From: an uncultured Chryseobacterium sp.
Lineage (GTDB): Bacteria; Bacteroidota; Bacteroidia; UBA10329
Length of the DNA: 64,000 bases
Direction of reading: 5' to 3'
Assembly (NCBI GenBank): GCA_964488095.1
Contig: CAZATP010000007.1
Location: 29,959 to 93,958 of the forward strand
Shown: in pieces, positions 1-3,000 of the stretch
Numbering within the stretch: the stretch's first letter is position 1
Layout of the letters: the number at the start of each line of letters is the position of its first letter
Position numbers: made by a program

Positions 1-3000
1 GGTCGGGCACCCACACCTCGTGATAGCGGTCCATGTAGCCCTTGTGCAGCCGATGCAGGTAGCCCTCCAGAAAAGGGGCCTTTATCATCACCTGATGGGT
101 GATGTAGGCACAGGGCACCTTATTGGAATACAGCCCAAAACGGTTGTCCGATATCACTCCGTTCAGACGGTAGTGGTCTATCATACCCTGCAACTCCTTG
201 TGCTCCTCGGCAATGCGTCTGATGATGCGGGGCGCGGCCACTCCCATTTTCCACACCATGCCCTGCCCCTCGGGATAGCTGATCTCATAGCCTTTGAAGG
301 AGATGAATTCCAGCGCGGGAAACTCGTCCAGCAGCAGGGCCAACGGCCGTCCATCGGCAGCGATCACGGGCACGTGGCCCAGCGCAAGAATGTGGCGGAT
401 GAGCGGAATGCAGCGGGTGGCATGGCCCAATCCCCAGTCCAGCGGGGCTATGAGAATGCGTTTTGCCATGCAGGGCGCAAGATGGGGAATAAAGCCATCG
501 GGTAGGAGGGGAAGAGGGGAGATGCCCGTGCGTGAGGCGGGTCAGGCCGGTGTTGTAAAAGGGAGCGAGACACTTCAACAGGCTCACGAAAAGCAGTTCA
601 CACATAACCCGAACGAAGAACGGACCCTCGTGCAGGCAAAGACAAAGTCACCAGTTCAGAAACTCCTTGACTTTTGGATGTGTCAAAAGTTTGTACAACA
701 ACAGCAGACCACTGATAACCTGCAATGTGGTGGCCACAATCAACATGGTTAGGGCACCTGGCCAGTGCTGGATTTTGAAGATGGCTCCAACAAGGCCTAT
801 CAGAATTCCAGCGGCAAGGATTAGAAGTATGTGTTTTGCTTTCATACAAATTGTTTGGTCTAAGCGGTTAGATGCAATAGATGTGTCGCAGTGGAGCTTT
901 GTCAAACTTTGGAAGTTTGACAAAGCTGATTCGAATGCCGAAGCATGAGCGGGTGGCATGGCCCAATCCCCAGTCCAGCGGGGCTATGAGGATGCGTTTG
1001 CTCATACGAGGTGCAAGATGGGGATAAAGCCACTATACCATGTGCAGGGTCAAACGTCCGTTCCTTACGTCTGTTCCGACTCCGACTGAACGAAATGGAT
1101 AGAGAACTATCCAAAATGGAAAGAAGTCTTTCCAAAATGGAAAGAACACTATCCGAAATGGAAAGAAGTCTTTCCAAAACGGAAAGAACACTATCCGAAA
1201 TGGAAAGAAGTCTTTCCAAAATGGAAAGAACACTATCCGAAATGGAAAGAAGTCTTTCCAAAACGGAAAGAACACTATCCGAAATGGAAAGAAGTCTTTC
1301 CAAAATGGAAAGAACACTATCCGAAATGGAAAGAAGTCTTTTCAAAATGGAAAGAACACTATCCGAAATGGATAGTTTGTCTGCCTGAAGGCGCTACCTC
1401 GGCAGCCTCATCTGAACAACCCCTGCACCCGCTGCCGCGGTTTCAGTGCGTTGATGTTGAACGTGAACCGTATGCGCTCCCAGTAGCTTTTGGTGAGAAA
1501 CTCGGCATTCTGCTGCAGGTCGCTGCTCAGGGCGATGGGGAAATGCACTGCCAGCACATCGGGGATCACGTTGAGGCTGGCCCCGAACTCCACAATGAAC
1601 AGTTCTGATTCGGGGAAGGCCGTGCCCGTGTTGCTGCTGAGGCCGATGCTGAAGAACAGCTCCACGGGCACCTTGCGGTAGAGCGTGGAGCTGAGGTTGA
1701 GCGCCATGAGCCATTCGTTGCTCTGCCCGATGTTCATGTAGGTCTTGAAGCCGCCATCGGCCTCTATCATCTGCTGGGAGAAGAAGCCGCTGGTCTCAAA
1801 GCGGCCCATGTAGGCGCCCTCGTAGAGATAGTCCTGATAGCCGCGATGCGATGACATACGGAGGTTGTAAATGGAATTGCTGCCACTGCCGATGATGCCG
1901 CCCACAAAAAGCCGTGCCCTGAATCCTCTGCTGCGCCTGTAGGCAAAGCCGTACACGGCCTCCAGGCTGAGCTTGGCATCGCGCTCCAACTGCTGGTAGT
2001 CGAGGGTGACGCGGGTGGAATGGGGCTTGAACTCCTGACGGAACTCGTAGGTGAGCTGGGGGATGACGATCTGGTCGCGGGCATTGTTCTCGCGGATGAA
2101 ATGACTGCCCCGCAACCGCAGGTGATGCGTCATGTTGAGCCGCCTGTTCCTCGGCCCGAACGTGAGGCTCACCTCGGGGCGGATGATGTTGCCCGGCATG
2201 TAGGGCGAGGTGGGCGACAGTGGCAGGTCGAATCGCTGACCCTGAATCCGGAACCGTACCTGTGGGTCTTTCAGCGTCTGGATGGTGTAGTGGATATCGG
2301 CCATACCCGTGAGCCCCTTGCTGCCGAAGGCATACATGGGCATGACCATGAAACTGAATCTGTTCTTGGGCAGGATGTCGTTGTAGAACGCCATGCCGAG
2401 CATGAAGCCGTCATACTTGTTGCCACCGAGCACGGGCGCGAAGGCCACGCGATACCGCATGTCCGATTCGAGGAACACCAGCGGCTGTATGCGATGCGGA
2501 TACTTGCTCTTGCCGAAACCGCGCACAAGGAAGGTGTTGTTCTTCAGGTCGGGGTCGGGCATGGTGCGGTCGGCATCGATCACCACACGGTCGCAACTGT
2601 CGCAGGGCACCGTGACCCATTGTGCGCCCCTGTGGCCTTCCGACCACGTGACCGACTGCACGGAATCCTCCCGCAGCACCGTGATGGGGAACGGGGCCTC
2701 GATGCCCCCACGGTTGCGGATGCGCACCTGCACCGAATCGCCTTGCAGCCGGGTGTACTTGGCCGCATAGTCCATCTTTTTGCGCGAACCCACCACATCG
2801 TCAAAGAACCAGCTGAGCGAATCGCCCGTCACCTCCATCGCTACTTTGCGGAAGTCCTCGGGGTAGGGGTGGCGGTAGCGCCACTCGCGGAAATAGCGGT
2901 GCATCAGCGTGTCCATCTTCTCCTCGCCCAGATACTGCATCAGATAATTGAGCACCACTGCCGATTTCATGTAGGCGATGGTGCCGTAGTTGGTGGAGGA

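What the first reader, a model, noticed from the sequence alone, without database searches (positions are those of the whole stretch)
412..1041. About 95-bp duplication of a glycosyltransferase gene 5' end bracketing a tiny GldL-motif membrane protein gene
Nucleotides 412-505 (the first about 19 codons of the GT gene plus about 35 bp upstream) recur at 948-1041 with about 90% identity. This creates a 45-codon pseudo-ORF (MSKRILIAPLDWGLGHATRS...). Between the two copies lies a 65-aa two-TM protein gene (648-845) carrying FKIQHWPGA, the hallmark motif at the N-terminus of GldL/PorL gliding/T9SS motor proteins. The pattern suggests an insertion or recombination event that duplicated the promoter and start of the GT gene. 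The small protein may now be driven by the duplicated promoter.
Basis: seen in the sequence. Interest (0 to 1): 0.55.

Follow-up and report, generated by a model that had tools for sequence, protein, structure and literature searches.

The report
Small-gene insertion that rebuilt a glycosyltransferase start
A 536-bp piece of DNA carrying a tiny membrane-protein gene has been inserted into the start of a glycosyltransferase gene in some strains of a freely recombining group of Bacteroidota; it brought a second, slightly different copy of the gene's start, so the gene stays intact. This is an ordinary but well-documented case of gene gain by recombination.

Summary
Window 412-497 and 948-1032 are an 86-bp direct repeat (77/86 identical). 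It covers 28 nt upstream plus the first 19 codons of a minus-strand TIGR00661-type glycosyltransferase (GT). The repeats bracket 450 bp that carry an intact 65-aa, two-helix GldL_N-like gene (648-845). Relatives settle the history. Four lineages (L003, L004, L092, L094) have an empty site, and three more distant ones (L005, L006, L095) lack both the insert and the neighbouring tandem array. Two lineages with about 7% divergent flanks (the window/L093 and L001/L002) share the insert, with 0 differences in its 300-bp centre. The upstream stub (B) is identical to the empty sites of L003 and L004. The downstream copy (A) differs only by eight substitutions and one indel clustered around the ATG. 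It matches a second natural allele seen in the empty site of L094. So the 10% divergence between copies is allelic, not age. The structure came from recombination between two alleles plus foreign filler, most likely one homologous and one illegitimate crossover. There is no transposase, integrase or second copy. Only 28 nt upstream are duplicated, so "promoter duplication" is unsupported. The small protein belongs to an uncharacterised family of stand-alone GldL-hairpin proteins and lacks GldL's essential Glu. Interest is modest.

The parts
1..469 (-). 5' part (156 codons) of the glycosyltransferase gene (353 aa in full, TIGR00661 / Glyco_tran_28_C type). It runs off the left end of the window.
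   Evidence: ORF and translation. Full-length gene from L093, which is 100% identical to window 1-876, and from L001. Homologues carry PF04101/PF13528.
412..497 (-). Repeat copy A: 28 nt of leader plus codons 1-19 of the functional GT ('A' allele, MAKRIL...).
   Evidence: It differs from empty-site L003 only at 8 positions plus 1 indel between -22 and +14. It differs from the empty-site allele of L094 by 3 positions (the L001 copy differs by 2).
498..647 (-). Spacer between the small gene and copy A. It is the G+C-rich part of the 450-bp filler and has no detectable homology or coding potential.
   Evidence: Composition. blastn and tblastx against all fetched loci gave nothing outside the insert-bearing loci.
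648..845 (-). Intact gene for a 65-aa protein with two transmembrane helices and the GALFKIQHWPGA-type GldL N-terminal motif. G+C is about 43-51% against about 58-60% in the flanks.
   Evidence: AlphaFold model with pLDDT 90.7 and helices 3-25, 31-55 and 57-64. The top 8 PDB fold matches are GldL/PorL chains.
846..947 (-). Filler upstream of the small gene. It contains a perfect 15-bp-stem palindrome (895-927, loop of 3) that starts 20 nt from the stub/filler junction (948|947).
   Evidence: stem forms; the 165-nt region gives MFE -51 kcal/mol, z = -4.6. There is no T-run after it and no equivalent hairpin upstream of the Hymenobacter homologues.
948..1032 (-). Repeat copy B: the displaced original leader plus codons 1-19 of the GT ('B' allele, MSKRIL...), now a stub.
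   Evidence: Identical (0 differences) to the uninterrupted sites of L003 and L004 up to the junction.
868..1005 (-). 45-codon pseudo-ORF: 19 GT codons from copy B read on into the filler. It stops 22 nt before the small gene's ATG.
   Evidence: No Pfam match.
1093..1372 (.). Context: 42-nt (2 x 21) tandem array of 6.7 copies with 36-37% G+C, between the peptidase gene and copy B. It is part of the exchanged intergenic module.
   Evidence: Present with other copy numbers in L001-L004, L092 and L094. Absent in L005, L006 and L095.
1408..4368 (-). Context: M1-family peptidase gene (986 aa), directly upstream of the GT on the same strand in all relatives.
   Evidence: Synteny.

Best explanation
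This is a presence/absence polymorphism in a group of recombining Bacteroidota lineages (relatives' proteins are named 'Flavobacteriales bacterium' in NCBI).

Shown:
- The ancestral layout is peptidase, then a short gap, then the GT.
- A sub-clade gained a 42-nt tandem array in the gap.
- Within that sub-clade, some genomes carry a 536-bp insertion at the GT start.
- The insertion is 450 bp of foreign, lower-G+C filler (palindrome, intact 65-aa GldL-hairpin gene, spacer) followed by a second copy of the GT leader plus 19 codons.
- The upstream copy (B) is the resident allele, cut off at codon 19.
- The downstream copy (A) is a different natural allele of the same 86 bp, fused in frame to the GT body, so the GT stays intact.
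- Both alleles occur in uninterrupted sites of relatives.
- The two copies are identical over the last 44 nt.
- The whole intergenic module (window about 375-1488) is about 99% identical between lineages whose flanks differ by about 7%. It has therefore recently been passed between lineages by homologous recombination.

Inferred mechanism: DNA from an A-allele lineage that already had the filler just upstream of its GT start entered a B-allele genome. One crossover was homologous, inside or just beyond the conserved 44-nt core of the GT start. The other end joined illegitimately at codon 19 of the resident gene. This is homology-facilitated illegitimate recombination. It is formally the same as single-crossover (Campbell-type) integration of a circularised fragment. 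The result is stub B + filler + A + GT. The direct repeats also allow precise loss by recombination.

Inferred consequence: the small gene now sits inside the peptidase-GT transcription unit, 22 nt behind the stub ORF. It is probably expressed from the upstream native signals. The insert's own copy of the conserved leader keeps GT translation going.

The small protein is a stand-alone GldL-type transmembrane hairpin without the motor's essential Glu or its cytoplasmic tail, so it is not a motor subunit. A role as a partner or modulator of GldL/GldM-type complexes is speculation.
For: - Empty sites: L003 (DNA 98-99.5% identical to the window on both sides), L004, L092 and L094. L005, L006 and L095 have only 31-45 bp between peptidase and GT.
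- Copy B shows 0 differences from L003 and L004. Copy A differs from L003 only in columns 22 and 35-56, then by 1 mismatch in 455 nt of GT.
- L094 has an uninterrupted site with an A-like allele: 2-3 differences from copy A and 6 from copy B.
- Allele swapping at this spot is visible independently. L004 and L094 have 99% identical GT bodies but different start alleles.
- Window vs L001: 0 differences in 300 bp of palindrome region plus small gene, and about 1% over 375-1488. This compares with about 7% in the GT body and peptidase, and 83% identity further out.
- The filler has lower G+C. The closest homologues of the small protein are only 57-66% identical, come from Hymenobacter, and sit in unrelated contexts such as VKOR and PAP2.
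- No second copy exists in the window or in any fetched locus.
Against: - The postulated donor layout (filler directly upstream of an A-allele GT, without stub B) was not found in any dataset I could reach.
- There is no clear microhomology at either novel junction (read from the sequence).
- A two-step path fits the data equally well: an insertion with identical 86-bp repeats, then replacement of one copy by the other allele.
- Transcription was not measured, and no convincing promoter motif was found.
- Natural transformation or another DNA-uptake route is not known for these uncultured organisms.
Confidence: 0.55

Rival explanations
1. Duplicative insertion in one genome, then allele replacement. 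The filler was inserted with an 86-bp duplication of identical copies, for example by repair of a staggered break or by template switching during replication. One copy was later replaced by the other allele through ordinary homologous recombination, which is common in this population.
For: Allele replacement at the GT start is seen directly (L004 vs L094). The intergenic module is clearly exchanged between lineages. No donor with the filler next to the GT and without a stub was found.
Against: It needs an unexplained mechanism for an 86-bp target duplication. It also needs a crossover confined to the 44-nt core (or to 19 nt of leader), whereas far longer homology in the GT body would normally remove the insert. 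No A-A or B-B intermediate was observed.
Confidence: 0.25
2. A miniature non-autonomous integrative element. A 536-bp circle carries an attP-like copy of the GT start. It integrates by site-specific recombination within the 44-nt identical core, restoring the target gene as tRNA-targeting islands do. A recombinase encoded elsewhere would mobilise it.
For: The formal pattern is that of attL/attR: an identical core, one divergent arm, and a target gene rebuilt by the element-borne copy. The insert is patchily present among near-identical strains (window vs L003). There is a perfect palindrome 20 nt from one junction.
Against: No integrase or recombinase lies in the 10 kb on either side. There is only one context and no other copy. 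The viral collection gave no hits. The 'attP arm' is simply the orthologous allele found in an uninterrupted genome (L094), which is what homologous exchange predicts.
Confidence: 0.1
3. One reading: a recent in-situ duplication of promoter plus gene start, whose copies then drifted to 90% identity.
For: Direct repeats flank the insert.
Against: The non-functional copy B has not changed at all. All differences lie in the functional copy, clustered within 35 nt, and they match a pre-existing allele. The rest of the GT shows 1 change in 455 nt against the empty-site relative. Only 28 nt of leader are duplicated.
Confidence: 0.03
4. Assembly artefact: a metagenome assembler strung two strain alleles into one contig.
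For: The two copies are indeed two alleles that co-occur in related strains.
Against: 450 bp with an intact, conserved foreign gene lie between the copies. The same junctions were assembled independently in genomes with 7% divergent flanks and from different projects. L093 confirms the filler-A side at 100% identity.
Confidence: 0.02

Closest known systems
GldL/PorL, the stator-like subunit of the GldLM/PorLM type IX secretion and gliding motor (TIGR03513; PDB 6ys8, 7sat, 7sau, 7sax)
   Same: It has a two-helix transmembrane hairpin with the GALFKIxHWPGA motif. The residues matching F. johnsoniae GldL K27 and H30 are invariant in the small family (K24, H27). A profile of the small family hits only GldL/PorL chains in the PDB (E = 1e-5 to 1.6). 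The predicted hairpin superposes on GldL/PorL chains at about 1 Å over 44-46 residues.
   Different: It is 65 aa rather than 200-380 aa and has no cytoplasmic tail. The invariant, essential Glu49 is Gln here, and Lys/Glu/Val/Gln across the family. Tyr13 is Leu. It scores 21 bits against a TIGR03513 cut-off of 68. It is not next to gldK/M/N. The importance of E49 and Y13, and mutant effects for K27A and H30A, are reported in bioRxiv 10.1101/2020.05.11.089193.
Stand-alone 63-66-aa 'GldL-related protein' family (Pfam GldL_N only), e.g. in Hymenobacter lucidus and Hymenobacter sp.
   Same: Same length. Same N-terminus (MKAKH), same motif, and same conserved tail (YKLLTHPKVKEFLNW). Identity is 57-66% over the full length.
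   Different: The Hymenobacter genes sit next to VKOR or PAP2/response-regulator genes, never in a GT leader. The window copy has Gln at the position of the motor Glu, and lower G+C than its host.
Homology-facilitated illegitimate recombination, or Campbell-type single-crossover integration
   Same: Foreign DNA is joined through one homologous crossover (the identical 44-nt core) and one junction without homology. Direct repeats of the homologous segment flank the insert. One repeat is the recipient's allele and the other is the incoming allele.
   Different: This is inferred from sequence comparison only. The donor arrangement and the DNA-uptake route are unknown. The classical cases usually delete recipient DNA rather than leaving a stub.
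Integrative islands that target gene ends (e.g. tRNA 3' ends) and carry a replacement copy
   Same: The target gene is rebuilt by an element-borne, slightly different copy. The displaced fragment stays as a direct repeat.
   Different: There is no integrase. The unit is only 536 bp. It has a single known site. It targets the 5' end of a protein gene rather than a tRNA 3' end.

Membership tests
GldL/PorL motor protein (TIGR03513) | N-terminal two-helix transmembrane hairpin with the GALFK-x-x-HWPGA motif | tested here: met
   Pfam GldL_N 24.8 bits (cut-off 24). Profile vs PDB hits only GldL/PorL. AlphaFold hairpin and fold matches.
GldL/PorL motor protein (TIGR03513) | Invariant protonatable Glu in TMH2 (F. 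johnsoniae E49), essential for motor function | tested here: not met
   The aligned position is Gln42 in the window protein (7sau E51 aligns to profile position 42). The family has K/E/Q/V there. E49 is called invariant and its substitution null in bioRxiv 10.1101/2020.05.11.089193.
GldL/PorL motor protein (TIGR03513) | Long cytoplasmic C-terminal region (total length about 200-380 aa) | tested here: not met
   The protein is 65 aa. The 71 true GldL/PorL genes recovered are 200-380 aa.
GldL/PorL motor protein (TIGR03513) | Reaches the curated whole-protein score | tested here: not met
   21.2 bits against a cut-off of 68.3.
GldL/PorL motor protein (TIGR03513) | Encoded next to gldK/gldM/gldN (porK/M/N) | tested here: not met
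   The neighbours are the M1 peptidase and the GT, then a histidine kinase, a hydrolase and sigma-54.
Stand-alone GldL_N mini-proteins ('GldL-related protein', 63-66 aa) | Full-length similarity including the MKxKH start, the motif and the YKLLTHPKVKEFLNW tail. About 65 aa. | tested here: met
   57-66% identity over 98-100% of the length to P0122-P0129. Further 63-66-aa members were found in 9 species representatives.
Insertion sequence / transposon / MITE | Transposase gene or terminal inverted repeats; short target duplication of fixed length (2-14 bp); several copies per genome | tested here: not met
   The only ORF is the 65-aa membrane protein. No inverted repeats lie at the insert ends, only an internal palindrome. 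The repeat is 86 bp. No other copy exists in the window or in any locus.
Site-specific integrative element (att-flanked island) | Integrase or recombinase in or next to the element | tested here: not met
   None among the called genes within 10 kb in L001, L002, L092 or L094.
Site-specific integrative element (att-flanked island) | Direct repeats with an identical core; element-borne copy restores the target gene | tested here: met
   44-nt identical core, with a divergent arm only in the downstream copy. Homologous exchange also predicts this.
Site-specific integrative element (att-flanked island) | Excised circular form, or integration at the same att site in unrelated backgrounds | not testable with these tools
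   Needs read-level data or cultures. Only two backgrounds are known, and both are explained by homologous transfer of the whole module.
Glycosyltransferase, TIGR00661 / GT28 C-terminal domain type (the interrupted gene) | Glyco_tran_28_C domain, with full-length conservation after the insertion | tested here: met
   The 353-aa gene is intact in insert-bearing L001 and L093. Homologues carry PF04101/PF13528, and JGI names some of them TIGR00661 family. The window fragment alone gives only a weak PF13528 hit.

The most novel reading that the evidence does not exclude
The 536-bp unit is a new kind of miniature, trans-mobilised gene cassette. It integrates site-specifically into the 5' end of a protein-coding gene and carries its own replacement start. 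Its cargo, a GldL-hairpin mini-protein lacking the proton-binding Glu, enters or caps GldLM-type 5:2 motors and modulates type IX secretion or gliding.
Probability: 0.05. Interest if true: 0.7.

Novelty: new member of a known kind. Interest (0 to 1): 0.3.

Why it matters
The locus gives a clear natural example of how a bacterium gains a foreign small gene inside an operon without losing the gene it lands in. It also shows that divergence between duplicated segments can reflect two alleles brought together by recombination rather than time since duplication. That is a caution for dating duplications. Finally, it points to an uncharacterised family of about 65-aa proteins that consist only of the GldL motor's membrane hairpin. 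I found no paper on them in the searchable library. They could be used to probe assembly of the GldLM 5:2 motor. None of this changes current understanding of recombination or of type IX secretion.

Tried and rejected
- Two exact or degenerate DNA scans of metagenome contigs, with the 40-nt core and with a degenerate start-region pattern, returned nothing. That collection evidently lacks these organisms, so no population survey was possible.
- The search for related loci with the GT protein in genome contigs returned no relative.
- The second genome scan, with the small-protein alignment, gave mostly true gldL genes and only 9 mini-proteins, none closer than 55%. The donor of the small gene remains unknown.
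- Viral contigs held no small-protein relative and no copy of the palindrome.
- Rfam (E-value mode, window 1-1700) gave only sub-threshold chance hits in the tandem array.
- The sigma-70 scan and a Bacteroidetes TAnnTTTG scan gave no convincing promoter for the small gene or the GT. The terminator-like hits are the hairpins of the tandem-array units.
- Six-frame translation, tblastx and blastn of the spacer and filler against all 95 loci found nothing beyond the motif-coding stretch of the small gene.
- The longer 103-aa reading of the small ORF (ATG at 959) was rejected because all homologues start at MKAKH.
- An integron-cassette reading was considered and dropped. There is no integron integrase or array, and the repeat is the target gene itself.
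- The ORFs through the tandem array (e.g. 1011-1388, a 'coiled-coil' reading) were not accepted as genes. ORFs are open on both strands across the array, and the many family hits are low-complexity heptad matches below their cut-offs.
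Full report
**Observation**

The repeat is real. The repeat finder reports 412-488 vs 948-1024 (77 nt, 90%). Alignment and BLAST extend it to 412-497 vs 948-1032: 86 vs 85 nt, 8 mismatches and 1 indel, E = 1e-27 within the window.

Read on the minus strand, each copy has 27-28 nt of leader followed by ATG and 19 codons of a glycosyltransferase (GT). Copy A (412-497) continues into the GT gene, which has its ATG at 469 and runs off the left end of the window. 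Copy B (948-1032) breaks off after codon 19. It reads on into unrelated DNA as a 45-codon pseudo-ORF (868-1005).

Between the copies lie 450 bp (498-947). They contain:
- a 150-bp G+C-rich spacer;
- an intact 65-codon gene (648-845, minus strand);
- 102 bp with a perfect 15-bp-stem palindrome (895-927).

The small-gene region has 43-51% G+C against 58-60% in the flanks. The description is otherwise correct.

**The small protein**

- It reaches the Pfam GldL_N gathering score (24.8 vs 24 bits). It is far below the GldL/PorL equivalog cut-off (21.2 vs 68.3 bits).
- Only ten proteins in the 5.8-billion-sequence collection resemble it over the full length. Apart from an identical copy, nine are 45-66% identical. 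All are 65 aa, and the named ones are from Hymenobacter and called 'GldL-related protein'.
- They share MKAKH at the start, GALFKIQHW in helix 1, and a conserved tail YKLLTHPKVKEFLNW (alignment A2).
- A profile of A2 hits only GldL/PorL chains among solved structures: 7sau_C at E = 1e-5, 7sat_C at 0.0047, 6ys8_G at 0.12.
- The AlphaFold model (pLDDT 90.7) is a helical hairpin plus a short third helix. Its eight best PDB fold matches are GldL/PorL chains at about 1 Å rmsd over 44-46 residues, although the E-values are weak, as expected for two helices.
- Mapping the HMMER alignments: F. johnsoniae GldL K27 and H30 correspond to the invariant K24 and H27. Y13 corresponds to Leu10. The invariant Glu (Fj E49, 7sau E51) corresponds to Gln42. 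Across the family this position is K, E, Q or V.
- The GldLM structure paper calls E49 invariant and its substitution null. It reports Y13 as important for motor function and slower adhesin movement in the Y13A, K27A and H30A mutants (bioRxiv 10.1101/2020.05.11.089193).

The protein is therefore a stand-alone GldL-type membrane hairpin and not a GldL.

Among the 80 best loci from one-genome-per-species contigs, 9 encode such 63-66-aa proteins. They come from Hymenobacter, Bizionia, Kordia, Winogradskyella, Lacinutrix, Polaribacter, Flavobacterium and a Marinilabiliaceae MAG. The other 71 are ordinary gldL/porL genes of 200-380 aa. In Hymenobacter the mini-gene sits beside VKOR or PAP2/response-regulator genes, never beside a GT. 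I found no paper on these mini-proteins.

**Relatives with and without the insert**

The GT is a 353-aa TIGR00661 / Glyco_tran_28_C-type enzyme with a graded series of homologues. Their contigs show conserved synteny: M1 peptidase followed by the GT on the same strand.

| Locus | GT identity to L001's GT (aa) | Peptidase-GT gap or state |
|---|---|---|
| L005 | 83% | 31-bp gap; no array, no small gene |
| L006 | 78% | 45-bp gap; no array, no small gene |
| L095 | 83% | 44-bp gap; no array, no small gene |
| L004 | 86% | 42-nt array, uninterrupted GT start |
| L092 (NCBI GCA_030153465.1) | 93% | 42-nt array, uninterrupted GT start |
| L094 (JGI 3300071646) | not measured (P0003 cluster, ≥90% to P0003) | 42-nt array, uninterrupted GT start |
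| L003 | 93% (P0002) | 42-nt array, uninterrupted GT start; DNA 98-99.5% identical to the window on both sides of the insert |
| L001/L002 | reference (100%) | insert present |
| L093 | not measured; DNA 100% identical to window 1-876 | insert present |

The insertion is therefore derived, is polymorphic among very close relatives, and is not an assembly artefact.

**What the two copies are**

- Copy B is identical (0 differences) to the uninterrupted sites of L003 and L004, right up to the junction 948|947.
- Copy A differs from L003 only by one extra T at -22 and eight substitutions between -8 and +14. The next 455 nt of the GT show a single mismatch.
- A dead stub that has not changed, next to a functional copy carrying nine clustered changes, cannot be explained by drift since the duplication.
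- L094 resolves this. Its uninterrupted site carries an A-like allele (…CATCTTGCACCCTGCATGGCCAAACGCATTCTC…). It is 2 differences from copy A of L001, 3 from copy A of the window, and 6 from B.

So A and B are two natural alleles of the GT start region, and the insert-bearing haplotype contains one of each. Exchange of these alleles is visible independently. L004 (B allele) and L094 (A allele) have 99% identical GT bodies (columns 200-400 and 600-800), while L003 shares the B allele with L004 but has a GT body only 72-80% identical to it there.

**Spread of the insert**

- Between the window and L001, the palindrome region plus small gene show 0 differences in 300 bp.
- The whole tract at window 375-1488 shows about 1% divergence, apart from three fewer 42-nt units in L001.
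- The GT body diverges by about 7% from position 374 downward. The peptidase gene diverges by about 7% from 1489 upward. Genes further out are only 83% identical.
- The window's GT body is much closer to the empty L003 than to the insert-bearing L001.

The intergenic module has therefore been moved recently between diverged lineages by homologous recombination in the flanking genes, lost by recombination between the repeats, or both.

**Mechanism**

There is no transposase, no integrase within 10 kb, no terminal inverted repeats, no second copy and no viral link. An 86-bp repeat is far outside transposon target duplications.

The pattern is: resident allele stub, then filler, then incoming allele fused to the gene through an identical 44-nt core. 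One homologous crossover plus one illegitimate join would produce exactly this. That is homology-facilitated illegitimate recombination as defined in PMC3240628. A single-crossover integration of a circularised fragment is formally the same.

This model requires a donor in which the filler already lay immediately upstream of an A-allele GT. I could not find that donor, and the junctions show no clear microhomology. The main rival is an insertion with identical repeats followed by allele replacement. It fits the recombination seen in this population, but it needs an unknown way of making an 86-bp duplication and an unusually placed crossover. A trans-mobilised mini integrative element is formally compatible with the core/arm pattern but has no positive support. 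I give the one-step recombination model about 0.55, the two-step model about 0.25, the mini-element about 0.1, and in-situ drift and assembly artefact together about 0.05.

**Likely consequences (inferred)**

Only 27-28 nt of leader are duplicated. That stretch (TTATCCCCATCTTGCACC…) is conserved even in L006 and L095, where the whole peptidase-GT gap is 44-45 bp. It is therefore more likely a translation-initiation or leader element of a peptidase-GT operon than a promoter.

In insert-bearing strains, transcripts coming from upstream would pass through the tandem array, the stub ORF (which stops 22 nt before the small gene), the small gene, the spacer, the second leader and the GT. The insert's own leader copy would keep the GT translatable. 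I found no convincing promoter or terminator. The palindrome has no T-tract and no counterpart upstream of the Hymenobacter homologues. Transcription needs to be tested experimentally.

What the mini-protein does is unknown. Interaction with GldL/GldM-type complexes is a hypothesis based only on the shared hairpin and the conserved periplasmic-face K and H.

**Verdict**

The insertion/recombination interpretation is supported. The promoter-duplication part is not, and the proposed 'ancient vs recent' test does not apply, because the divergence between the copies is allelic. This is a new example of known processes carrying a member of an already catalogued but unstudied mini-protein family. 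Interest is 0.3.

Noticed in passing
window 1093-1372: Tandem array of 42-nt units, each made of two 21-nt half-units that each form a short hairpin (6.7 copies, 96% matches, 36-37% G+C in a genome of about 58%). It lies between the peptidase gene and the GT stub. ORFs are open on both strands across it, so the 125-aa 'coiled-coil' ORF at 1011-1388 is not evidence of a gene. Copy number varies among relatives (L001 has three units fewer), L094 has a diverged version, and L005, L006 and L095 lack it. Function unknown.
   Followed up: partly
window 4481-4818: A second, unrelated 42-nt tandem array (8.0 copies, 90% matches) lies on the other side of the same peptidase gene. L094 has a related array there. 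L092 and L006 instead have a PemK toxin-antitoxin pair at that position, L005 has a PIN-domain pair, and L001 has only 46 bp. Both flanks of the peptidase gene are hot spots for variable inserts.
   Followed up: partly
window 895-927: A perfect palindrome (15-bp arms, 3-nt loop; AGCTTTGTCAAACTT CCA AAGTTTGACAAAGCT) sits inside the inserted DNA, 20 nt from the stub/filler junction and about 50 nt upstream of the small gene. It has no T-tract, is not found elsewhere in the window or in viral contigs, and has no equivalent upstream of homologous small genes.
   Followed up: partly
L004, L094, L003, L092, L001 GT genes (alignment); window 1-469: The GT gene is a recombination mosaic across lineages. 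L004 and L094 are 99% identical in the gene body but differ at the start. L003, L092 and the window are 99.6-100% identical at the 3' end but 88-97% in the middle. The last 260 nt are much more similar across all these lineages than the middle of the gene.
   Followed up: partly
window 470-497 and 1006-1032; L006 4975-5000; L095 3330-3358: An approximately 20-nt leader element (T[T]ATCCCCATCTTGCACC) immediately upstream of the GT start codon is conserved between lineages whose GT genes are only about 75-80% identical. This suggests a functional translation or regulatory signal in organisms that mostly lack Shine-Dalgarno sequences.
   Followed up: no
L001 11416-11438 (also L004, L005, L092, L094): The GT gene and the convergent histidine-kinase gene downstream overlap by 17-23 nt at their 3' ends in all relatives examined.
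   Followed up: no
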